Positions 5,200 through 56,195 of a stretch of DNA of 64,000 bases are shown in pieces. The notes under the pieces were generated by a model. It was not told the origin of the DNA, did not search any database, and saw only the letters and a program-made list of their open reading frames with translations. Source of the DNA: a virus. Its lineage: Duplodnaviria; Heunggongvirae; Uroviricota; Caudoviricetes. Each line of letters starts with the position of its first letter. The stretch's first letter is position 1. Location of the stretch: IMG/VR virus record IMGVR_UViG_2571042690_000019; one strand, given 5' to 3'. Made by a program: the position numbers and the translations under genes.

Positions 5200-5853
5200 C
5201 TATCCTTTCTTGAAATCGAAGTTGCCAGCAGTGGCCTGAAAGGTTCCCCCAGCCTTGAAAGCTATGTCCCCGTTAGCGGTGACAGCTATATTTTCCCCAT
5301 TAACATTGATGTTGTTGGCTGATTTGACGTTAACACTCCCTCCTGCATTCACGATTACATCAGCCGGACCAATGATATATATCTGCCCGGACTCATTCAT
5401 GCCAATCCTTGAGCCTGCTGCCGTATTGGCAATTTCATAGCCGCCACCAGCAGTTCGTACTTCAAGAATATTGTTGCGGTGAATAACGAAGTCTTTCGTT
5501 GCTGAGATTTGGGGGCGGGGAGGTGCTCCATCTACTTCCGGCGGCGTCCAGCCGTTGCCTTTGCCAGATGCTTCTGGTGCAACGTTTGGAATTCCTCCCG
5601 GTGCATCCTGAGCGGCACCAACTATCATTGGGCGTCTGGTGTCTATTCGACCGTTAACATCTAAATAAGGAAACTCTACCCAGACCAGGTCACCTTTGAC
5701 TGTAGGTACAAAAGCGTTCCCGATGGGTAACTGGTATTCCGCCCAGGGTAGATCGTCATCAGGAACGCCATTCCAGTCAGGTAAAACACGGACTTGAGCA
5801 CGCATAAGCCCTGCCGGGTGCACAGTTCCAACAATTTGCGCTCTACGCTTCAT
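5200..5853 (-). CDS. hypothetical protein, glycine-rich C-terminal repeats
   Basis: 217-aa ORF in an operon of four stop/start-coupled genes; no family recognised. Confidence 0.55.
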   Translation of the reverse strand: MKRRAQIVGTVHPAGLMRAQVRVLPDWNGVPDDDLPWAEYQLPIGNAFVPTVKGDLVWVEFPYLDVNGRIDTRRPMIVGAAQDAPGGIPNVAPEASGKGNGWTPPEVDGAPPRPQISATKDFVIHRNNILEVRTAGGGYEIANTAAGSRIGMNESGQIYIIGPADVIVNAGGSVNVKSANNINVNGENIAVTANGDIAFKAGGTFQATAGNFDFKKG

Positions 5854-6830
5854 TTGTTAGGCACTCCCAATATCATTCGTGTTGTGTAGCCTACGCGGTC
5901 CTCAAAGTGCGCAACATTTTTTACTATCAGCTTACGGGGCATTGATTCATCAATGCGGTTTTCCTGGTCATAGCGGTATACGATAATCTCTATTACCATC
6001 CCCGGTTTTATATCAGGATTGCCTGCGACTTCTATATCCATTTTGGGGACGAGAGACAGCTGCATATTGCGAAGAGTTTCCATATCAGAGTCGGATATAT
6101 AACGTACTGGGAGTGAGCTATCGCCATATTCGACGTAGCCATCGGTCATGGAATACCCAACAAAACGATATTGATTCTTTGCTGTTGTCGCATGTTCCTG
6201 TTGGAGTAGGCGCATTTTGGACAAAGTGTATTCTGCTTTAGGGTTATTCCCCTCGTAGGTAAATGATGGCGTTTGCTTCATCAGATCAGCCAGGGTGTAA
6301 AAGTTAAATTCCCCCCGGCATACCCAACATAATGCACCTTTGTCTCGCGCTATCTCCGAAAGCATTTTTGACGGTTTGTCACCGGCATTCAGATGATATG
6401 TAACTGCGCGTTTTAGCACGCTGCTGGTAATTTTAAGCTTGCCGGAATATGCCTTGAATATAGCGTCTGGTGTTTTGTTGGTATGTAAATTTGTGCGCGG
6501 GGAGGGGATCTTAAACCTGCGCACGTCTTCACTGACAGCAATAACGGTAACAACATCACCAGCCAGCATTGCAGACGTAACAAAGAAATCTGTTTTAAAA
6601 GTGCCTGCATTACCGTTTGGATCGCCCATTTCAGCCACCAGCGATGCACCGTATTTGGCTTTCCAGTCATCAATTACGGTGCCGGTAGCGTCATGAATTT
6701 CCAGTTTTAGCAAAGGGGCTTTGAGGCTGGTTTTTTCTACATATACTGCGGTAAAAATCCAGTCTCGTGGCACTTTGTTATCGTTAATGAGCACTGACTG
6801 TAGAAAATATTGTTGTAACTCCTGGGCCAC
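5850..6830 (-). CDS. hypothetical phage protein
   Basis: 326-aa ORF, start overlaps upstream stop. Confidence 0.55.
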   Translation of the reverse strand: MAQELQQYFLQSVLINDNKVPRDWIFTAVYVEKTSLKAPLLKLEIHDATGTVIDDWKAKYGASLVAEMGDPNGNAGTFKTDFFVTSAMLAGDVVTVIAVSEDVRRFKIPSPRTNLHTNKTPDAIFKAYSGKLKITSSVLKRAVTYHLNAGDKPSKMLSEIARDKGALCWVCRGEFNFYTLADLMKQTPSFTYEGNNPKAEYTLSKMRLLQQEHATTAKNQYRFVGYSMTDGYVEYGDSSLPVRYISDSDMETLRNMQLSLVPKMDIEVAGNPDIKPGMVIEIIVYRYDQENRIDESMPRKLIVKNVAHFEDRVGYTTRMILGVPNK

Positions 6831-12147: not shown

Positions 12148-12801
12148 TCAAAGTATCACGGTATCTTCATCAACTTCTTTCCCAGTCAGCGACTTTGGCT
12201 GGGAGGTGCCTGCTTTAACTTTTTCATGCCCAATAATGGACAGGAACGAAGCGAGTATGCCTGTTTTTTGCTCTTTCTCGACTGTACCGGTCATCTGCTC
12301 TACGTAATCCGCACTGGCAACATTGTGGTATACGGTCGCGTAGCAACACAGGATCATCAAAATATGTTCCGGCCTGATATCCTGCCAGTTCACCCGGTAA
12401 ACTTCTTCTCCGTTACCGTTGTATTCGGTGTCAACGATGGAGTCGGGAATTTCGAAAGCACCTTTATTGTTTTGCGGCAGGGATAATAGCTTCTGGAGTT
12501 TTAGCTCTCTGTATCTTTCCATCCCTACGATGATCGCAGCTCTGCCGTCGGCATGACGTGTCTTGAGTGTTACCTGGCTTGCTCCGGTGCCAGCGGAGAT
12601 CGTTGGCGTAATTTCGTCTACCAGCACCTTAAATTTGCTTTTCCGCAGGGCTGCTATAGCTGGAGGAATCTTTTGCTTTTGTTCCAATGCTGACGCGGGA
12701 AGGGGTTTTACTTCGTTAATCACGAGAGCACCGTCTTTCAGTATTGCAGTGAGCATTTGCGGTTTGCTGGTGGTCAGGCTGAATATTGCTATCTTCTCCA
12801 T
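12148..12801 (-). CDS. hypothetical protein
   Basis: ORF 12148..12843; start placed at internal Met (MEKIAIF) downstream of a hairpin. Confidence 0.5.
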   Translation of the reverse strand: MEKIAIFSLTTSKPQMLTAILKDGALVINEVKPLPASALEQKQKIPPAIAALRKSKFKVLVDEITPTISAGTGASQVTLKTRHADGRAAIIVGMERYRELKLQKLLSLPQNNKGAFEIPDSIVDTEYNGNGEEVYRVNWQDIRPEHILMILCCYATVYHNVASADYVEQMTGTVEKEQKTGILASFLSIIGHEKVKAGTSQPKSLTGKEVDEDTVIL

Positions 12802-13069
12802 TGTCCTTCCTCCACGGATGACGGATACAAAAAAAGGCCGCACATGGCGGCCTGCTTTGGCGTTATGACTCCCTACCGCGCTTCGGCTGAAAGTTAATCG
12901 TCAAAAGAACCTTCAACGGGAGCCGTTAGCGCGATGGATTATGTGCAGTTTGTGATTTCCAGAATAGTGTCAACCACTTTTTGAGGATTTTATTATTTGA
13001 CCGAAACTTGGCCTAAATCATGTTGATGTAGTTGATTGTTTTTATAACATAAAACTTCATTTTGTTTAC

Positions 13070-13693
13070 ATGAAGGATGGTGTAGTGAAGTTAAGGGTTT
13101 TAGGGGCCGCGCTCGCGGCTATGTTGGGATGCGTATCTGCTAATACTGCCAATGCAACTGCGTTACCTGCACAATTCAGGGCAGGGCAGCAGGTTATGAA
13201 TAACGCTGTTGGGGATCATTCACAAGCGGCCATTATGGACTTTTGCAAGAGGGAGGGCATTCCATTACGGCCTGTTGGAACTCAGTTTATTGGTAAAACT
13301 GACTTTTGCGTTTTTGCATATACAGCATATCTGACGGACAAAGCTATAACAAAAACAGGTTATTCAACCAAAGATACTCTTTCCAGATTAAGTCAGGGAT
13401 GGCAGCAATTCGAAGTGTATCGCCAGCAAGGATTAGGTGAGTTATTGCAACCACTTTTTATGCTTGCGTTGGTGCCAGAGGGGCAGCAATTTTTGGTTAA
13501 AAAGGGAATGCTTCGCCAAAGTGATATTGCCGGGTTCGATAGCATGATGGCTTATGAGCGCAAACTAACCGAGCAGCGAAATAAAAAACCATCTGCTTCA
13601 TGTGTGCAAAGTAAAACAGCAGAATACAGTGCAGTAGCCGGGCCTTTAGCCAAACAAATGGCAGAGCAATGGTGTAAAAAATACGGGCAATAA
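13070..13693 (+). CDS. hypothetical secreted protein or lipoprotein
   Basis: 207 aa, N-terminal signal-like hydrophobic segment LGAALAAMLGCVSA. Confidence 0.55.
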   Translation: MKDGVVKLRVLGAALAAMLGCVSANTANATALPAQFRAGQQVMNNAVGDHSQAAIMDFCKREGIPLRPVGTQFIGKTDFCVFAYTAYLTDKAITKTGYSTKDTLSRLSQGWQQFEVYRQQGLGELLQPLFMLALVPEGQQFLVKKGMLRQSDIAGFDSMMAYERKLTEQRNKKPSASCVQSKTAEYSAVAGPLAKQMAEQWCKKYGQ

Positions 13694-13713
13694 GTTACGC
13701 AGCGGAGGCAGAA

Positions 13714-14106
13714 TTGAACAGATTGGCTATTGCTTTACTGGCGTCTTTCCCTTTGATCGCGAGCGCCGGAAATTTACAAGTTAAGTGCGGTCGGTTTGAT
13801 ATAAAAATCTATCCAGATGCCATATTTCTGAATGGGAATAAGGTTGATAACGCACACCGAAAAACTGAATCTGACGTAATGAGCTATGTGTTCCAGGAGT
13901 ATGCGGAGATGGGGGGAACTTACACGCTGTACTCGCTGGATGTTCCTTCTCGCGGTGATATGACATTATCCCATCAATGGCAGAACGCCGATGGCGAAGC
14001 TCTGCGCGAGGTTAAAACAGAAAAATGTGGCACTTTCCATTCTTTTAAAGGGAAAGCGCCAAATGTTAAATCTGTGCTTGAAAAACAGCGCGCAGGTGAG
14101 CTTTAA
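13714..14106 (+). CDS. hypothetical secreted protein
   Basis: 130 aa, signal peptide MNRLAIALLASFPLIASA. Confidence 0.55.
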   Translation: MNRLAIALLASFPLIASAGNLQVKCGRFDIKIYPDAIFLNGNKVDNAHRKTESDVMSYVFQEYAEMGGTYTLYSLDVPSRGDMTLSHQWQNADGEALREVKTEKCGTFHSFKGKAPNVKSVLEKQRAGEL

Positions 14107-14414
14107 ACACCTTTAACCACGGAGATGCCGTTCCCTGCACGATAGCTGCGGGGAACGGAATTCTCCATCAGGTCACGAATTACTCCCGCCTCATGTAGTT
14201 CCTCTGTTTCCCAGTATCTGTTTGTCACCAGATCCAGGCTGGCTATGACCTTGTGCCGGTCATTCGGCATAGCCAATTTTTCTGCTATAACCATCAGTGA
14301 AAACTCTTCATCCAGTAGGATTTGATACCAGACTTTTGCCAGTTCCAACTCTCTAATGAGGGTGAAGCGCCGCTCAAGTGTGGCGGCAGAATAAGTGAAA
14401 TCTATTTTTTTCAT
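14103..14414 (-). CDS. hypothetical protein
   Basis: 103-aa ORF. Confidence 0.4.
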   Translation of the reverse strand: MKKIDFTYSAATLERRFTLIRELELAKVWYQILLDEEFSLMVIAEKLAMPNDRHKVIASLDLVTNRYWETEELHEAGVIRDLMENSVPRSYRAGNGISVVKGV

Positions 14415-14473
14415 CGTGCGGATAATCCGATTATTTGGCAGTTAAATCCCCGGCGTCGCCGGGGATGCAGCAT

Positions 14474-15652
14474 TTAACTAACAATCCAGTCCATAGCAAT
14501 AACATCCTCTGGAGCTAAATCAATAGCATGGATTTTCCCGTCACGGATGGTGCGCCAGTGCTTTCGTGATCCACCTTCGGGCCACACCCATATACCTTCA
14601 GGCCAGGAAGAACGACGACACACTGTTGCGTATCCAGTCCTGATCTTCTCTCTGACGGTATGTAGTGACAGATTATCCTTTGGGCTTTCAGGCACAGGAT
14701 GGTGGATTGCCTGAAACATCCCCATCTTTGGATGATACCAGCGTTTATTGCGTGGTTCTGCCTCCGACATCACCTGCTTAAAGGCTTTCCGGAAGGGGGC
14801 ACGTGATCCACCTTCGGGCCACACCCATATACCTTCAGGCCAGGAAGAACGACGACACACTGTTGCGTATCCAGTCCTGATCTTCTCTCTGACGGTATGT
14901 AGTGACAGATTATCCTTTGGGCTTTCAGGCACAGGATGGTGGATTGCCTGAAACATCCCCATCTTTGGATGATACCAGCGTTTATTGCGTGGTTCTGCCT
15001 CCGACATCACCTGCTTAAAGGCTTTCCGGAAGGGGGCCAGGGCCACAATGGAACGTCGCGCAAGCAAACCGTCGGGAGTTAAAAACTCATGCGTATCTGT
15101 GGGGATCCGGTAAGCGTTGACCAGGTTGCGGCATTTGGCTTCAGTCAGGCCGCATTTCGCCGCTAACTGGCGATAGCCAATGTAGCCTTCCGGAATATTG
15201 CCTTTCTTTATTTGCTCGACGGTTTCAGCGACTTTGGTCACTTGTGCCGATACTTCGGCTACCTGGGCATTAACGGCGTTGATCCGGCGTTCATGCTCAA
15301 GATGCATTTGCGCCATTTCAGCCAGAATTTCGGCTTTTGATTTTAACTGTACCCGGGCATTCTCCAGTTCGCGCCAGCGGTCCACCAGCCGGGCGGTGAA
15401 TTCGGGAGAGAGCTGCGCGACGACGACAATACTATCGCGCTTGCCTTGCTCGCCTTCGAAGAAATAGGCTTTTGTGTATTTATTAGGGCTAAGTGATTGA
15501 TTATTCTCAACTGTAGCCAATGGCGTATGTTGGATAACTCCTTTAGCAACAAGTCTTTCGATGCTGCGTTTAACATCAGAGTGACGACTTCCCACCAGTT
15601 CCGCGATCTCAATGCTGGTCATTGTCGCTTTTTGAGAGATGGACAGATTCAT
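14474..15652 (-). CDS. phage antirepressor-like protein (Rha/Ant family) fused to a C-terminal domain; contains a 79-codon in-frame tandem duplication
   Basis: N-terminal SIEIAELVGSRHSDVKRSIERL and central region homologous to ORF 54851..55558; C-terminus homologous to separate ORF 54654..54854. Confidence 0.7.
   Translation of the reverse strand: MNLSISQKATMTSIEIAELVGSRHSDVKRSIERLVAKGVIQHTPLATVENNQSLSPNKYTKAYFFEGEQGKRDSIVVVAQLSPEFTARLVDRWRELENARVQLKSKAEILAEMAQMHLEHERRINAVNAQVAEVSAQVTKVAETVEQIKKGNIPEGYIGYRQLAAKCGLTEAKCRNLVNAYRIPTDTHEFLTPDGLLARRSIVALAPFRKAFKQVMSEAEPRNKRWYHPKMGMFQAIHHPVPESPKDNLSLHTVREKIRTGYATVCRRSSWPEGIWVWPEGGSRAPFRKAFKQVMSEAEPRNKRWYHPKMGMFQAIHHPVPESPKDNLSLHTVREKIRTGYATVCRRSSWPEGIWVWPEGGSRKHWRTIRDGKIHAIDLAPEDVIAMDWIVS
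14565..15038. repeat. exact tandem duplication, 2 x 237 bp, inside the antirepressor gene
   Basis: two consecutive identical 237-nt units; peptide APFRKAFKQV...WPEGGSR repeated twice in the ORF. Confidence 0.9.
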
Positions 15653-15867
15653 CAGTGCACCTCCACGCAGTTCATTGGCAGATTCCAGTAATTGAGGATC
15701 TCCATCGCATCAAGAGTGAAGCGAGCAGCAAAAATGCAGGGTTCTTCGGGAAGGTATGAGCGCGCCTCTGCTTCGGTAGCAGCCATTACGCAGATATAAA
15801 GGTGTTTTTGGCAGGAATAGAAACGCCAGATAAATTCAGAATGAGTTGGGGTAGGGATAGTAGCCAT
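15652..15867 (-). CDS. small protein upstream of antirepressor (position of P1 icd)
   Basis: 71 aa, strong AAGGAGG RBS, stop overlaps antirepressor start; paralog of ORF 55558..55782. Confidence 0.55.
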   Translation of the reverse strand: MATIPTPTHSEFIWRFYSCQKHLYICVMAATEAEARSYLPEEPCIFAARFTLDAMEILNYWNLPMNCVEVH

Positions 15868-16183
15868 ATTGGCAGCCTCCTTTGACTAAGTTAAGGAGCT
15901 ACCGCGTGAGGTTCCAATCTCAATGGCGGTAGCACTGACTGGGTTGGAACTACCGGCGTCAAAGGGAACCGGCCTGCCTTTCGGCAGCCCAGCCAGCACT
16001 ACCATTGATCTCTGAGCTAAACGCTAAGTATGGCTGTGCGATGGCATGACACAAAAAAAGACGCGTTCGGCGTCTGTGTCGCCTTTGACATTATCCGGGG
16101 TTCCAATCCCGGCACCCGTTTTTCTAAGGTGCCGTAGAAATATACCCCACGATAATGCCATGGCGCAACAGTCAGTATTTTAT

Positions 16184-17257: not shown

Positions 17258-17323
17258 GATGGCAGTCTCTTACTTTTCAACGATTTTTCTATGATTGATC
17301 AAAATGGTTAGATATTCAAAATT

Positions 17324-17337
17324 GATTTTCTAACATA
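17324..17337 (+). promoter_or_regulatory. operator-like motif GATTTTCTAACATA between divergent ref and plus-strand operon
   Basis: dispersed conserved motif followed by TAATAT. Confidence 0.45.
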
Positions 17338-17374
17338 AAACATTAATATCATTCCTGATAACTGTTTGGAGGAC

Positions 17375-18467: not shown

Positions 18468-18960
18468 AGGTTTAACGCCAGCACAACTGGCAGAGCGTAA
18501 CGCTGAGTATGTAACGGAAATTTCCCGACTTGAGAAAGAACGCTCGGCGCTGGCGGCGGAGAATGAACTGGCTCGTAAGGCAGTTCAGGCATTCTGCGAT
18601 GTTGTTGGCGACAACACCGAGGTTATCGCTGAGGAGGTTGGGCGAGATGGCGTTCTGGTTATTTTGGAGGCCATGAAGGCAACAGGAAATATGCCAGCCA
18701 CCGATGCTTTCCTGGCTGAAATTCGTGCGGAGGCTCGCAACGAGGGGATTAACTATACCGCAAGCCGTCTTGCTGCTGCTTTCAACCACGGATTTATCAA
18801 TAAGTCTTTACGTGAAGTTTTCGACGTTACACGCATGATTCTGTCAGCGAAAGAAGAGTTGGCTAATGAACCGCACCCGATTGATGGCCTGTCCGGTGAA
18901 TATGCGGAGAAATCCCTTGAAGAATGGGCGGAACAGATTCGCAAAGGAGCTGACAAGTGA
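18457..18960 (+). CDS. Ea22-like (ead/Ea22 family) phage protein
   Basis: ALAAENELARK and ATDAFLAEIRAEARNEG signature segments shared with four paralogs. Confidence 0.65.
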   Translation: MKSEGLTPAQLAERNAEYVTEISRLEKERSALAAENELARKAVQAFCDVVGDNTEVIAEEVGRDGVLVILEAMKATGNMPATDAFLAEIRAEARNEGINYTASRLAAAFNHGFINKSLREVFDVTRMILSAKEELANEPHPIDGLSGEYAEKSLEEWAEQIRKGADK

Positions 18961-19367
18961 AGAAGATGATTTTTGTCGCGGCATTGTTGGTGAATATCCA
19001 ACAAGTGCATGCTTCAGCAGCTATTGTAGCCTCTACCGCCGCGACTACGGCTGCTGTAGCTGCTGCGAACTCTGCGAATATCGCAAACCAACAGGCACAG
19101 CGTGCTGCTAATGCATCAGCCAGCGTTCACTCAATCACCATTAAGAGCAGTAAGCAAAATCTGGGATTCATAACGTGCGGCACGCGTTCTAATGAAGCTG
19201 TAGGTTCACTTGGATGTACGGTATATGGGGGTAGTGAGAATAGAGAAATTCCATGGAAAACGTGGCCCGGATACGTTCTTGGCTCGAAGCTCCCGGCCAG
19301 TTATGAAGTAAACGCCGTATCGTTTGATCACTATAACGGCGTGGCAACGGTCTATTTTGCATATTGA
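18957..19367 (+). CDS. hypothetical secreted protein
   Basis: 136 aa, N-terminal signal-like MKKMIFVAALLVNIQQVHA. Confidence 0.5.
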   Translation: MKKMIFVAALLVNIQQVHASAAIVASTAATTAAVAAANSANIANQQAQRAANASASVHSITIKSSKQNLGFITCGTRSNEAVGSLGCTVYGGSENREIPWKTWPGYVLGSKLPASYEVNAVSFDHYNGVATVYFAY

Positions 19368-34729: not shown

Positions 34730-34910
34730 TAAAATGCCGATTTTTTTTAATCCATCATAGATTGATGATGACCAGTAACACGTTGCCTTCATGGTCTTTA
34801 ATTTGCGAAGTGTGGTTTCTACGGTTGGTTTTCTAAAATTGATGACAAAAAATCACAGTTCGATCCTTTACTCACTCTGTTATTCGACATAAATTTGTCA
34901 TAGTAATTTT

Positions 34911-34925
34911 ATGTTAGAAAACTAA
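34911..34925 (-). promoter_or_regulatory. operator-like motif TTAGTTTTCTAACAT immediately upstream of gene 34940
   Basis: dispersed conserved motif 15-29 bp before ATG. Confidence 0.45.
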
Positions 34926-34939
34926 ATCGAGTAGGAATA

Positions 34940-40796: not shown

Positions 40797-40872
40797 TGGT
40801 GGCCCCTACCGGACTTGAACCGGTGACCGTGCGATTATGAGTCGCCAGCTCTAACCACTGAGCTAAGGGGCC
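40797..40872 (-). tRNA. tRNA-Ile (anticodon CAU, ileX-like) or tRNA-Met
   Basis: GGCCCCTTAGCTCAGTGGTTAGAGC...CTCATAA...GGTTCAAGTCC...GGGGCCACCA; cloverleaf folds; near-identical to E. coli ileX as recalled. Confidence 0.75.
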
Positions 40873-42561: not shown

Positions 42562-42637
42562 TGGTGCCGATTAACGGACTCGAACCGCTGACATCCTGCT
42601 TACAAGGCAGGCGCTCTACCAACTGAGCTAAACCGGC
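42562..42637 (-). tRNA. tRNA-Thr (anticodon UGU)
   Basis: GCCGGTTTAGCTCAGTTGGTAGAGC...CTTGTAA...GGTTCGAGTCC...CGGCACCA cloverleaf. Confidence 0.8.
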
Positions 42638-42639
42638 AT

Positions 42640-42715
42640 TGGCGATGGTGGATGGATTTGAACCATCGACCCGTTGATTAACAGTCAACCGCTCTAACCG
42701 CTGAGCTACACCATC
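42640..42715 (-). tRNA. tRNA-Asn (anticodon GUU)
   Basis: GATGGTGTAGCTCAGCGGTTAGAGC...CTGTTAA...GGTTCAAATCC...CACCATCGCCA cloverleaf. Confidence 0.8.
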
Positions 42716-45158: not shown

Positions 45159-45183
45159 TGCTATTCCCGTTACTTTGTTAAAT

Positions 45184-54135: not shown

Positions 54136-54621
54136 ATGGCAAACATTGAACCTCGCTGGCTAATTGAAGCCCGTAAGCACATTGGCCTGACTGAAATAAA
54201 AGGCGCTAAACACAACCCTGAAATCGTTCAGTTCTGGCGCGACATCAAGCGCGGCGGAATTAAAGACGATGAAACGCCGTGGTGCGCAGCATTTGTCGGT
54301 GCAATGCTGGAACGTGTAGGCATCCGCTCAACAAGATTTGAGTCGGCAAAATCCTATCTGGATTGGGGCGAGAAATTAGATACACCGGCATACGGATGTA
54401 TCGTTGTATTTACCCGCGTAGGCGGTGGGCACGTAGGCTTCGTTGTCGGACGCCGCGCCAATGGCGATCTGCTTGTCTTGGGTGGGAACCAGGGGGATGC
54501 GGTAAATATTCGCGCATTCCCAACATCAAGAGTGTCTGGCTATCGCTGGCCTGCTGGCGAACCACGCAATACCGCTCTGTTACCAGTCGGAGACGCAGCA
54601 ACCTCAACTAATGAGGCATGA
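54136..54621 (+). CDS. hypothetical protein, possible CHAP/NlpC-P60-like hydrolase (TIGR02594-type)
   Basis: 161 aa with conserved Cys (ETPWCAAFVG) and His (GGGHVGFVVG) spaced as in CHAP-like domains. Confidence 0.45.
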   Translation: MANIEPRWLIEARKHIGLTEIKGAKHNPEIVQFWRDIKRGGIKDDETPWCAAFVGAMLERVGIRSTRFESAKSYLDWGEKLDTPAYGCIVVFTRVGGGHVGFVVGRRANGDLLVLGGNQGDAVNIRAFPTSRVSGYRWPAGEPRNTALLPVGDAATSTNEA

Positions 54622-54650
54622 AAAAAGCCCCGGCCTGGCCGGGGCATCAC
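54621..54650. terminator. terminator hairpin (GCCCCGG-CCTGG-CCGGGGC) with A-run upstream, T-run on minus strand
   Basis: ends the minus-strand antirepressor operon. Confidence 0.55.
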
Positions 54651-54653
54651 GCT

Positions 54654-54854
54654 TCAAGTCACGATCCAATCATTACCGACTATATCAGCCGTCGATAAAT
54701 CAACTTCCCGGATCTGGAGTCCATTAATACAAAACCATCCGGTAGTAGAGTAATTATCAGGCCAGGCCCATACACCAACACTCCATGCTTTACGGCGGCA
54801 CACTTCAGCCTGTCCTTCCCTGATTTTTTTTACCGCCTGCATGATGTCCATCAC
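54654..54854 (-). CDS. small protein homologous to the C-terminal domain of antirepressor 14474..15652
   Basis: CRRKAWSVGVWAWPDN...DWIVT aligns with CRRSSWPEGIWVWPEG...DWIVS. Confidence 0.5.
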   Translation of the reverse strand: MMDIMQAVKKIREGQAEVCRRKAWSVGVWAWPDNYSTTGWFCINGLQIREVDLSTADIVGNDWIVT

Positions 54855-55558
54855 TCACCTCCCCAACCGATCACCTGGAATTGCCCCATTTTGGGGTGAT
54901 ACCAGCGTTTTCCTCGGTGTTCAGCCTCCGACATCATCCGGTTAAAAGAATTCATGAAGGGAGATAAGGCCACGATGGAACGACGCGACAATACCCCCTC
55001 TGGAGTTAAAAACTCATGTGTATCGGTGGGAATCCGGAAAGCGTTAACCAGGTTGCGGCATTTGGCTTCGGTCAGGCCACATTTCGCCGCCAGCTGGCGG
55101 TAGCCAATGTAACCTTCCGGCATATTGCCCTTCTTGATTTGCTCGACGGTTTCAGCGACCTGGCTAACCTTTGACTCAACAGCATGAAGCCGCTTTTGCT
55201 GCTGAACTGCATTTGCAGCCATTGCGGCGATCATCTCTATTTCGGTCAACGGCTGGCGTACTTGTTCTTCCAGTTCGCGCCAGCGGTCCACCAGCCGGGC
55301 AGTAAACTCAGGACAAAGCTGTGCGACTACAATGATACTGTCTCGTTTGCCTTGCTCGTCGCTAAATCGGAACACCTGAATTAATCGAGAACGCCCCATT
55401 ACATCTATTTTTGGTTCATCCTCAATTTGAGGACGAACAATAACGCCGGATTCGGCTAATGTTTCAATGGTACGCTTCACATTGTCATGACGTTTTCCCA
55501 CCAGCTCCGCGATCTCAATGCTGGTCATTGATGGCTTTTCAAGAATGCAGATATCCAT
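54851..55558 (-). CDS. phage antirepressor-like protein (Rha/Ant family)
   Basis: MTSIEIAELVGKRHDNVKRTIETL and central region homologous to 14474..15652; start set at internal Met overlapping upstream stop. Confidence 0.65.
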   Translation of the reverse strand: MDICILEKPSMTSIEIAELVGKRHDNVKRTIETLAESGVIVRPQIEDEPKIDVMGRSRLIQVFRFSDEQGKRDSIIVVAQLCPEFTARLVDRWRELEEQVRQPLTEIEMIAAMAANAVQQQKRLHAVESKVSQVAETVEQIKKGNMPEGYIGYRQLAAKCGLTEAKCRNLVNAFRIPTDTHEFLTPEGVLSRRSIVALSPFMNSFNRMMSEAEHRGKRWYHPKMGQFQVIGWGGE

Positions 55559-55782
55559 CAGTGTGCCTCCGCAATGCCGGGATTGGTAATATTGCGATAC
55601 CAAGGATTAGTGTTTGGTTGTGGGGAAGTAGAGAAACGACCAGTAAGAACACCATGCTGATCAGGGATCAGAGAACGGGCTTCTTTTTCGGTTGCGGCAA
55701 TTGCGAAGTGATCGCAGTGTTTTTGCAGGGAGTGGAAACGCCAGATGAATTCTGGACGTGAGCAAGGATTGGCATTAACCAT
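55558..55782 (-). CDS. small protein upstream of antirepressor (paralog of 15652..15867)
   Basis: shared EFIWRF..S.QKH...AATE.EARS segments. Confidence 0.5.
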   Translation of the reverse strand: MVNANPCSRPEFIWRFHSLQKHCDHFAIAATEKEARSLIPDQHGVLTGRFSTSPQPNTNPWYRNITNPGIAEAH

Positions 55783-56128
55783 AGTTACGGCCTCACTAAC
55801 AGGTTTAACAACCTGCTACCCGCTGTCAAACAGGTGGCAGGACGTGACAGGGTTGACAGACTGGCGTTAGTGAAACCAGCAGGCCGAAGCCTCCCCATCA
55901 CGCCCCACCATAATTCGGGCGTAACGTGGTTTACGGACACAAAAATACCGCAATATCGGAAATCTGCGGTTGTCCGCACTAACATTCAGGCTGTCAAACC
56001 TGGTCGCAGAATTTGCTACGACGGCATGAATATAAGCCTGAAAACATGGAAGATCAACTAAAAATTTCAGCAATGGATGACTTCAGTCGATGATGCAGAT
56101 CATACATTCCGATTTAGAAACAGCAAAT

Positions 56129-56143
56129 TAATTTTCTAACATA
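56129..56143 (+). promoter_or_regulatory. operator-like motif TAATTTTCTAACATA
   Basis: dispersed conserved motif. Confidence 0.4.
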
Positions 56144-56195
56144 AATCATCGAGCGGGCATTTTCCGATCATTGGGATGCTTTGTAGACACACAGG

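What the first reader, a model, noticed from the sequence alone, without database searches (positions are those of the whole stretch)
13070..14106. Pair of signal-peptide proteins as candidate superinfection-exclusion factors
Two adjacent genes encode proteins with N-terminal export signals (one with an LGC lipobox-like end). P1-type phages use periplasmic Sim proteins to block DNA entry; these exported proteins in an accessory stretch are candidates for a similar role.
Basis: inference. Interest (0 to 1): 0.4.

Follow-up and report, generated by a model that had tools for sequence, protein, structure and literature searches.

The report
Exported protein pair in sim-like locus
Two adjacent genes of a D6-like (P1-related) E. 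coli phage-plasmid encode a pair of secreted periplasmic proteins that work together and sit in a swap-prone locus that in sister elements holds relatives of the phage P1 superimmunity protein SimB, so a role in blocking superinfecting phages is plausible but untested.

Summary
13085-13693 (ORF1, "A", 202 aa from the GTG start) and 13714-14106 (ORF2, "B", 130 aa) form a two-gene operon. Both proteins have Sec-type signal peptides and conserved cysteine pairs. The LGC "lipobox" is present but not conserved: it is Gly in close homologs and absent in distant ones. A conserved AxA site before an ALP motif argues for signal peptidase I cleavage.

The window is a D6-like phage-plasmid. Neither protein resembles SimA, SimB or SimC, any Pfam, NCBIfam or PADLOC family, or a virion protein. 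A is a confident all-helical model with no PDB or viral fold match.

Three findings link the pair to the sim system:
- A and B occur fused into one polypeptide in other elements.
- In 32 of 32 D6-like loci the same slot next to mat holds shuffled exported modules: A+B, A-B fusion, SimB-like fusion, or A plus SimB-like.
- A lies next to a SimB homolog in three independent contexts, one directly upstream of the C4/icd immunity operon.

A 20-bp motif found at the positions of P1's C1 operators overlaps the operon's likely promoter.

Function stays inferred: a periplasmic sim-like exclusion cassette (about 0.4). Interest is moderate.

The parts
13023..13050 (+). Candidate sigma-70 promoter TTGATG-16 nt-TAACAT (inferred by eye). 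An alternative from the scan tool is GTGTCA-18-TATTAT at 12967-12996.
   Evidence: Sequence read; the tool's candidate is. The upstream region 12850-13121 is about 92% identical to phage D6 although the downstream cassette differs.
13035..13054 (+). 20-bp operator-like motif ATTGTTTTTATAACATAAAA overlapping the candidate -10. It is probably a binding site for the element's C1-type repressor (inferred).
   Evidence: The motif ATTGATTTTCTAACATAAAA with up to 3 mismatches gives 4 hits in the window against 0.02 expected. The other sites lie upstream of ref (17321), upstream of the second c4 operon (56127) and upstream of the putative c1 gene beside pacB (34907). A weaker copy lies upstream of pmgS (45182). 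These are the positions of C1 operators in P1. The site is conserved upstream of both A+B and SimB-like cassettes in 27 of 32 loci.
13085..13693 (+). ORF1 = module A: a 202-aa precursor (207 aa if ATG 13070 is used). It is an exported all-alpha protein with invariant C54, C75, G92-Y93-S94, T98, P123, G133 and D147.
13085..13156 (+). Predicted Sec signal peptide of ORF1 (24 aa, cleavage ANA|TALP). It contains the non-conserved 'MLGC' lipobox-like string.
13714..14106 (+). ORF2 = module B: a 130-aa precursor. It is an exported small beta protein with motif YAEMGG(T/S)YT and two conserved Cys. Its stop overlaps the stop of the convergent pmgF-like gene.
13714..13767 (+). Predicted Sec signal peptide of ORF2 (18 aa, cleavage ASA|GNLQ).
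   Evidence: It is missing from the B part of the fusions P0024 and P0027.
13122..14106 (.). Exchangeable cassette body. Homology with phage D6 stops at about 13122, inside the ORF1 signal-peptide codons, and D6 carries a SimB-like gene from there on.
12148..12843 (-). Left flank: mat (maturation control) homolog, divergent from the cassette. It served as the anchor for the locus survey.
14103..16132 (-). Right flank: pmgF-like gene (14103-14414), ant (14474-15652), icd (15652-15867), C4 antisense RNA (15922-16009) and an isrK-like RNA (16054-16132). Together they form an immI-type unit that converges on the cassette.

Best explanation
ORF1 (A, helical) and ORF2 (B, small beta domain) form a two-gene operon. 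Both products are exported to the periplasm through Sec, most likely as soluble, disulfide-bonded proteins after signal peptidase I cleavage. They act together, probably as a complex.

The operon is one allele of a modular, frequently exchanged 'sim-like' accessory cassette of D6-like and P1-like phage-plasmids and some plasmids. The cassette's building blocks are A, B, a SimB-like domain, a C domain and an E domain.

The most likely job is the one known for the P1 sim operon. The proteins would sit in the periplasm of a cell that carries or is being taken over by the element, and would stop incoming phage DNA after adsorption. They could do this by binding an ejected phage protein or an envelope component needed for DNA passage. 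A C1-type operator over the promoter suggests that expression is tied to the element's immunity circuit: low in the lysogen and high early after infection or induction.

Shown here: the genes, the export signals, the A-B fusion link, the allelic exchange with SimB-like genes, the A/SimB adjacency, and the repeated operator-like motif. Inferred: periplasmic complex formation, C1 control, and the exclusion function with its mechanism. The confidence of 0.4 refers to the exclusion function; the exported, coupled-pair part is far more secure.
For: - Export: signal peptides and conserved Cys pairs.
- Working together: the two genes are 20 nt apart in one operon. Fusions P0024/P0039 (277 aa; P0039 stands for 22 sequences on 29 contigs) and P0027 (281 aa) each match both PHROG 12786 and PHROG 13864. 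The A+B pair is also present, with a frameshifted B, on a Vibrio parahaemolyticus plasmid at about 30% identity.
- Same slot as a sim-related gene: D6 orf79 is SimB-like and uses the same upstream region, with the breakpoint inside the ORF1 leader.
- Locus survey of 32 IMG/VR D6-like loci: 14 A+B, 11 SimB-like-C fusion, 3 A followed by SimB-like-C, 3 E-C, and 1 A-B fusion. No locus lacked an exported module.
- A next to SimB homologs in three independent contexts:
  - L015, a D6-like contig.
  - L012, a small replicon with SimB-like followed by an A-B fusion.
  - L053, a Citrobacter P1-like phage-plasmid with Cf_123, A and SimB directly upstream of isrK, C4 and icd.
- Fast divergence relative to the neighbouring gene: A is 39-66% identical where Mat is 77-88% identical.
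- Published context: the sim region of P1-like elements and the simB region of D6-like elements are reported as variable regions (PMC9603915; PMC6799933). The P1 sim genes are non-essential for plaque formation (PMC10695390).
- No SimA, SimB or SimC homolog exists elsewhere in the window, so this cassette is the only candidate occupant of that role in the 64 kb seen.
- Operator-like motif at P1-equivalent C1 operator positions.
Against: - There is no homology of A or B to SimC, SimA or SimB, or to any known exclusion or defence protein.
- SimB's own contribution to exclusion has never been shown. P1 annotates it only as a 'putative accessory function'.
- The association is guilt by neighbourhood.
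- If the operator-like motif does bind C1, the operon could be shut off in lysogens, which would be awkward for a classic lysogen-protecting exclusion function.
- A also occurs alone on non-phage plasmids beside rep genes and beside virulence-type genes, so its function need not be phage-specific.
- Cassette type does not cleanly co-vary with the allele of the injection transglycosylase/tape-measure gene sit, one obvious candidate target.
- The ORF2 model is of low confidence.
Confidence: 0.4

Rival explanations
1. The pair is a periplasmic accessory (conversion) module unrelated to phage exclusion. For example, it could give protection or immunity against periplasm-acting toxins such as colicins, T6SS or CDI effectors and lysozymes, or it could be an envelope fitness or virulence factor carried as cargo by plasmids and phage-plasmids.
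For: - A-type genes occur on non-phage plasmids: beside rep genes (L016, L017, L050, L012), beside an autotransporter (L017), and in an IS-rich stretch near Ail/Lom and an M60-like peptidase gene (L008, L009).
- Modular shuffling and fast divergence are also typical of immunity-protein repertoires.
Against: - No toxin or effector gene lies next to any copy examined.
- There is no match to known immunity, inhibitor or defence families.
- The recurrent partner is SimB, and the recurrent neighbourhood is the phage immunity region.
Confidence: 0.22
2. The pair serves the element's own lytic programme. In this view it is an early, C1-repressed periplasmic function such as lysis timing, sensing for lysis inhibition, envelope remodelling or help in virion maturation, rather than host protection.
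For: - An operator-like motif overlaps the likely promoter, as at ref, c4, c1 and pmgS.
- The neighbours are mat and pmgF, which are annotated as maturation or morphogenetic genes.
Against: - The locus is replaced wholesale by non-homologous cassettes in otherwise near-identical elements. Mat is 98-100% identical across cassette types, which is not expected for a core lytic function.
- The P1 sim genes are dispensable for plaque formation.
- A and B occur on a conjugative Vibrio plasmid and on small replicons with no phage genes in the sequenced flanks.
- There is no similarity to holins, antiholins, spanins or endolysins.
Confidence: 0.13
3. ORF1 is an outer-membrane lipoprotein that masks or inactivates a phage receptor, in the manner of Cor or Llp, and ORF2 is a helper.
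For: The window allele has A-M-L-G-C, which fits the permissive lipobox pattern. The residue after Cys is Val, not Asp, which would allow outer-membrane sorting.
Against: - The Cys is replaced by Gly in P0002, P0003 and P0008 and is absent in P0007 and all distant homologs, while the downstream AxA|xLP site is conserved.
- Positions -3 and -2 (M, L) are atypical for a lipobox.
- There is no similarity to Cor or Llp families in PHROGs or Pfam.
Confidence: 0.05
4. The module serves plasmid biology, for example entry or surface exclusion against related plasmids, or establishment or maintenance. This would explain its position beside replication genes.
For: A-type genes lie directly next to Rep3/RepB initiator genes on L012, L016, L017 and the conjugative Vibrio plasmid L050.
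Against: - Most carriers are non-conjugative phage-plasmids: 65 of 67 PLSDB records are typed non-mobilizable.
- In D6-like elements the cassette is far from the plasmid replicon.
- There is no similarity to TraS/TraT-type exclusion proteins in Pfam.
Confidence: 0.07

Closest known systems
Phage P1 sim operon (simA-simB-simC; SimC is annotated 'superimmunity')
   Same: - It is a small operon of proteins that all carry N-terminal signal peptides (sequences), carried by a P1-type phage-plasmid.
- It is non-essential.
- It lies in a reported hypervariable region.
- It is physically tied to the immI (c4-icd-ant) region.
- A-type genes are operon partners of SimB homologs.
   Different: - A and B have no detectable sequence, profile or fold similarity to SimA, SimB or SimC.
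- SimC shows a weak OB-like (tRNA_anti-like) signal, whereas A is all-helical and B is a small beta domain.
- The window's cassette converges on the 3' end of the immI unit, rather than diverging from c4.
- No phenotype is known for A or B.
Phage D6 orf79 ('putative superimmunity accessory function protein', SimB-like; PHROG 13054)
   Same: - It occupies the identical slot between mat and pmgF.
- It has the same upstream regulatory region, including the operator-like motif, and even shares the first 12 or so codons of the ORF1 leader.
- It is exported.
- In L015, L031, L040 and L041 it follows an A gene directly.
   Different: - It is a different protein, made of a SimB-like domain plus a 160-aa C domain.
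- It has no similarity to A or B beyond the leader remnant.
- It is accompanied by a small membrane protein gene (orf80) that the window lacks.
T4 Imm/Sp and other envelope-located superinfection-exclusion proteins (P22 SieA, Cor, Llp, Ltp); compared from general knowledge, not tested here
   Same: These are small phage-encoded envelope proteins that block DNA entry. Imm and Sp are expressed early in infection, which would match an immunity-repressor-controlled promoter.
   Different: - There is no homology in PHROGs, Pfam or PADLOC.
- Those proteins are membrane proteins or lipoproteins, whereas A and B look like soluble periplasmic proteins.

Membership tests
P1 Sim (SimC) superinfection-exclusion protein, PHROG 14355 | Sequence or profile homology to SimC | tested here: not met
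   BLASTP gives E above 3. hhalign probability is 0.4% for both the A and the B profile. A and B fall in PHROG 12786 and 13864, while SimC falls in 14355.
P1 Sim (SimC) superinfection-exclusion protein, PHROG 14355 | Cleavable N-terminal signal peptide, giving a periplasmic processed protein | tested here: met
   In-silico evidence only: n/h/c regions, AxA sites, conservation across divergent homologs, conserved Cys pairs, and loss of the second signal peptide in fusions. Processing itself is not testable here.
P1 Sim (SimC) superinfection-exclusion protein, PHROG 14355 | Position next to the c4 promoter region of immI | tested here: inconclusive
   The window cassette lies 1.8 kb from C4 RNA, beyond ant and pmgF, and is convergent. 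The Citrobacter homolog operon (A + SimB) lies directly upstream of isrK, C4 and icd.
P1 Sim (SimC) superinfection-exclusion protein, PHROG 14355 | Blocks infection after adsorption and before DNA reaches the cytoplasm | not testable with these tools
   This needs expression in a naive host with adsorption and DNA-entry assays.
SimB-like proteins (PHROG 14329; N-domain of PHROG 13054) | Homology to P1 SimB | tested here: not met
   Neither ORF1 nor ORF2 hits SimB or the D6 orf79 SimB-like domain. Only operon partnership and allelic position link them.
Bacterial lipoproteins (Lgt/LspA substrates) | Conserved lipobox [LVI][ASTVI][GAS]C at the end of the signal peptide | tested here: inconclusive
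   The window allele has M-L-G-C, which fits only the permissive pattern. The Cys is Gly in three close homologs and absent in distant ones. LipoP was not available. Lipidation of this particular allele cannot be excluded.
Spanins (Rz/Rz1-type lysis proteins) | A type II membrane i-spanin plus a small outer-membrane lipoprotein o-spanin, in a lysis cassette | tested here: not met
   Neither protein has an N-terminal transmembrane anchor without cleavage. There is no embedded or overlapping gene, no PHROG lysis category, and the holin genes lie elsewhere in D6-like genomes.
Periplasmic lysozyme/transglycosylase inhibitors (Ivy, MliC/PliC, PliG, LprI) | Family HMM match or a matching fold | tested here: not met
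Virion structural proteins | Homology to head, tail or baseplate proteins | tested here: not met
   PHROG hits are 'unknown function' only. There is no structural family in Pfam or PHROGs and no BFVD fold match.
Known anti-phage defence systems (PADLOC-DB 2.0) | Match to any defence-system protein model | tested here: not met
   There are no hits at E up to 0.1.

The most novel reading that the evidence does not exclude
A, B, the SimB-like domain, the C domain and the E domain would together form a previously unrecognised, combinatorially shuffled toolkit of periplasmic 'gatekeeper' proteins, carried by phage-plasmids and plasmids of Enterobacteriaceae and Vibrio. Each combination would block DNA entry of a different set of phages. 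A would have a new fold, and expression would be wired to the C1/C4 immunity circuit. This would also place P1 Sim, whose mechanism has been unknown since the 1980s, inside a larger family that can be dissected comparatively.
Probability: 0.25. Interest if true: 0.65.

Novelty: new variant of a known kind. Interest (0 to 1): 0.42.

Why it matters
- To my knowledge (no mechanistic paper found), how P1-type phages stop superinfecting DNA in the periplasm is still unexplained.
- If this cassette is an exclusion module, the natural series of alleles in otherwise near-identical phage-plasmids offers a ready-made swap experiment. The alleles are A+B, the A-B fusion, A plus SimB-like, SimB-like alone and E-C.
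- Such an experiment could map which periplasmic module blocks which phage, and through what target.
- D6-like phage-plasmids are common carriers in E. coli, Salmonella and Shigella. This cassette is in 38 of 5,426 complete E. coli genomes. Its effect on phage susceptibility therefore also matters for phage therapy and for the spread of these elements.
- If the function turns out not to be exclusion, the result is still a small, conserved two-protein periplasmic system with a new helical fold.

Tried and rejected
1. Direct homology to SimA, SimB or SimC by BLASTP and hhalign: negative.
2. Family libraries. Pfam, NCBIfam and PADLOC gave nothing, and PHROGs gave only unknown-function families.
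3. tblastn against 50,697 phage records found no hit for either protein. The family is seen only in plasmid, phage-plasmid and metagenome data.
4. A profile search over 1.84 billion representative proteins found only 22 hits and none with annotation.
5. Fold searches:
   - ORF1 against BFVD viral structures: E above 1.
   - ORF2 against PDB: only generic eight-stranded barrels.
   - The idea that ORF2 is a MliC/PliC-type lysozyme inhibitor, acting on the Sit transglycosylase, found no support.
6. Co-variation of cassette type with the sit allele in PLSDB plasmids. With D6-type sit there were about 14 SimB-like against 4 A+B. With the roughly 88%-identity sit allele there were about 12 SimB-like against 14 A+B. 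This is a weak trend with clear exceptions, is confounded by shared ancestry, and was not used as evidence.
7. The P1 C1 operator consensus has no match in the window. P1 late-promoter-like sites are not near the cassette.
The taxonomic range therefore rests on PLSDB and metagenome hits.
9. The Lobocka et al. P1 genome paper could not be read. Statements about the 1980s-90s Sim experiments rest on memory and on the P1 record's annotation.
10. GC content of the cassette is 42-46% against 47-51% in the flanks, too small a difference to argue for anything.

Full report
**What the window is**

The region matches about 90-kb non-mobilizable plasmids of E. coli, Shigella and Salmonella at 98-99% identity. 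It matches phage D6 only in its first 222 bases.

Gene order around the finding follows D6: tail genes 25 and 26, mat, [cassette], pmgF-like, ant, icd, C4 RNA, ref. The window is therefore a D6-like, P1-related phage-plasmid.

**The observation**

ORF1 (13070 or 13085 to 13693) and ORF2 (13714 to 14106) are co-oriented and 20 nt apart.
- ORF1 most likely starts at GTG 13085. AAGGA lies 7 nt upstream, and the 202-aa database cluster representative P0001 matches this start.
- ORF2 starts at TTG 13714, behind GGAGG.

Both N-termini are classic Sec signals:
- ORF1: MKLRVLGAALAAMLGCVSANTANA|TALP
- ORF2: MNRLAIALLASFPLIASA|GNLQ

A crude scan of all six-frame ORFs of at least 70 aa in the 64 kb flags only seven, and these two neighbours are among them.

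The stronger evidence is comparative.
- Homologs down to 23-30% identity keep a signal peptide of unrelated sequence followed by a conserved (A)LP motif.
- C54 and C75 are invariant across the whole A family. C173 and C197 are conserved in the close set.
- B keeps two Cys.
- In natural fusions the B part has no signal peptide of its own.

The 'LGC' string is real, but the Cys is Gly in three close homologs and missing from the others. The family is therefore best read as soluble periplasmic proteins cut by signal peptidase I. Lipidation of this one allele cannot be excluded without LipoP or experiment.

**What the proteins are**

Pfam, NCBIfam and PADLOC give nothing. PHROGs places the proteins in two unknown-function families, 12786 and 13864. 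tblastn against 50,697 phage records finds nothing.

A profile search of 1.84 billion representative proteins returns only 22 relatives of ORF1.

| Protein | AlphaFold2 model | Fold search result |
|---|---|---|

There is no similarity to P1 SimA, SimB or SimC by BLASTP or hhalign. No Sim homolog lies elsewhere in the window.

**Evidence that the two proteins work together**

P0024/P0039 (277 aa) and P0027 (281 aa) are single polypeptides. Each has an ORF1-like N-terminal part and an ORF2-like C-terminal part, and each matches both PHROGs.
- P0039 stands for 22 sequences on 29 contigs and sits in the same mat-adjacent slot of D6-like elements.
- A Vibrio parahaemolyticus conjugative plasmid carries an A gene followed by a frameshifted B gene at about 30% identity.

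The pairing is therefore old and not confined to E. coli.

**Evidence that the locus is a sim-related, exchangeable cassette**

In D6 the same slot holds orf79. Its residues 52-137 are 52% identical to P1 SimB (E 2e-25).

Window/D6 homology (92%) runs through the upstream region and the first dozen ORF1 codons and breaks at about 13122. D6 orf79, as annotated, begins with a remnant of the ORF1 leader.

I anchored on Mat and fetched 32 D6-like loci from IMG/VR. Every one has exported modules in this slot:

| Cassette type | Loci |
|---|---|
| A+B | 14 |
| SimB-like-C fusion, always with the orf80 membrane-protein gene | 11 |
| A followed by SimB-like-C | 3 |
| New helical E domain fused to C | 3 |
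| A-B fusion | 1 |

Mat is 98-100% identical across cassette types. In contrast, A drops to 39-66% identity where Mat is 77-88%.

Beyond D6-like elements, A lies next to SimB homologs in further contexts.
- A small replicon has SimB-like followed by an A-B fusion (L012).
- A metagenomic D6-like contig has A followed by SimB-like-C (L015).
- A Citrobacter freundii P1-like phage-plasmid has an operon of an exported 123-aa protein, A, and a full-length SimB homolog (42% identical to P1 SimB, E 2e-29). This operon sits directly upstream of isrK, C4 RNA and icd.

Published work already noted two related points.
- The simB neighbourhood differs between Salmonella D6-like plasmids. pSL26_91, which carries the window's cassette at 98-99%, has simB 'substituted by uncharacterized hypothetical proteins' (PMC6799933).
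- simABC is one of eight hypervariable regions of P1-like elements (PMC9603915).

**Regulation**

A 20-bp motif (ATTGATTTTCTAACATAAAA, up to 3 mismatches) occurs four times in the window against 0.02 expected. The sites are:
- at 13035-13054, overlapping a plausible promoter (TTGATG-16-TAACAT) 31 nt before the GTG start
- upstream of ref (17321)
- upstream of the second c4 operon (56127)
- upstream of the gene beside pacB that occupies the c1 position (34907)
- a weaker copy upstream of pmgS (45182)

These are the places where P1 has C1 operators, although the P1 operator sequence itself is absent. I infer that the cassette is under the element's C1-type repressor.

The site is kept upstream of both A+B and SimB-like cassettes. 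It deviates from the other copies at one core position, which might mean leaky repression. This is inference only.

**Interpretation**

Shown:
- an exported, functionally coupled protein pair
- one allele of a modular cassette whose other alleles and operon partners are SimB relatives
- a position close to, and probably regulated with, the immunity circuitry

Inferred: a Sim-like periplasmic block of incoming phage DNA.

The weak points are several.
- SimB's role is itself unproven.
- There is no homology to SimC.
- A occurs on non-phage plasmids.
- Repression in lysogens is possible.
- Cassette type does not cleanly co-vary with the sit allele.

Rivals are a non-phage periplasmic protective or immunity function, a role in the element's own early or lytic programme, receptor masking by a lipoprotein, and a plasmid-exclusion role.

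**Prevalence**

The cassette is present at 80% coverage or more in 38 of 5,426 complete E. coli genomes. Of all 83 matching places, 76 are on plasmids. It is also in 49 PLSDB plasmids at 80% coverage or more.

**Verdict**

It is best filed as a new variant of sim-type exported accessory cassettes, with function unproven. Interest is moderate.

Noticed in passing
window 14565-15037: There is a perfect 237-bp tandem duplication (2.0 copies, 100% identity) inside the ant gene (14474-15652). It repeats a 79-aa segment of the antirepressor. It is either a recent duplication or an assembly artefact, and most related loci match only ant residues 1-288 plus the C-terminus.
   Followed up: partly
window 13035-13054, 17321-17340, 34907-34926 (-), 56127-56146, weaker at 45182: A 20-bp motif ATTrnTTTTCTAACATAAAA is repeated at positions that correspond to P1 C1 operators (upstream of ref, c4, c1 and pmgS). 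It is probably the operator of the D6-type C1 repressor, and one copy sits on the cassette promoter.
   Followed up: partly
window 15922-16132 and 55830-56035: There are two immI-type modules. The first has C4 RNA plus an isrK-like RNA upstream of icd and ant. The second has C4 RNA plus c4-a1b1 targets upstream of a second icd/ant pair (54579-55761), as in D6 orf18 and orf19.
   Followed up: no
L001 (phage D6) 6185-6250: The annotated start of D6 orf79 (VKLMVLGTALAAK...) is a remnant of the ORF1-type leader. The real start is probably the internal Met (MFFIKNGKRF...) that begins its own signal peptide. This looks like a recombination scar at the cassette boundary.
   Followed up: partly
L030, L032, L035 (IMG/VR D6-like loci), cassette slot: A fifth cassette type encodes a 291-aa exported protein. 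It has a new helical N-domain ('E') fused to the same C domain that follows the SimB-like domain in D6 orf79. These loci lack the operator-like motif at this position.
   Followed up: partly
L053 (Citrobacter freundii pRHBSTW-00697_3) 5552-5923: Cf_123 is a further exported 123-aa protein that heads the A-SimB operon. It has no significant similarity to B (E 0.14) and may be yet another module of the set.
   Followed up: no
L050 (Vibrio parahaemolyticus pLH214-1) 5508-5926: The B-like gene downstream of the A-like gene is split by a frameshift, so it is either a pseudogene or a sequencing error. The same plasmid carries repL, icd and a C4 RNA although it is typed as conjugative.
   Followed up: no
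PLSDB D6-like plasmids, sit gene (query L052 20835-24617): The injection transglycosylase/tape-measure gene sit occurs in at least two allele groups: 97-99% identity to D6, and about 88% identity with an indel. They assort largely independently of cassette type.
   Followed up: partly
window 18957-19367 (+): Another small ORF (136 aa, PHROG 8805, unknown function) has a strong signal peptide (MKKMIFVAALLVNIQQVHA|SA).
   Followed up: no
window 40800-40872, 42565-42715 (-): Rfam called three tRNA genes, as is typical for P1- and D6-type phage-plasmids.
   Followed up: no
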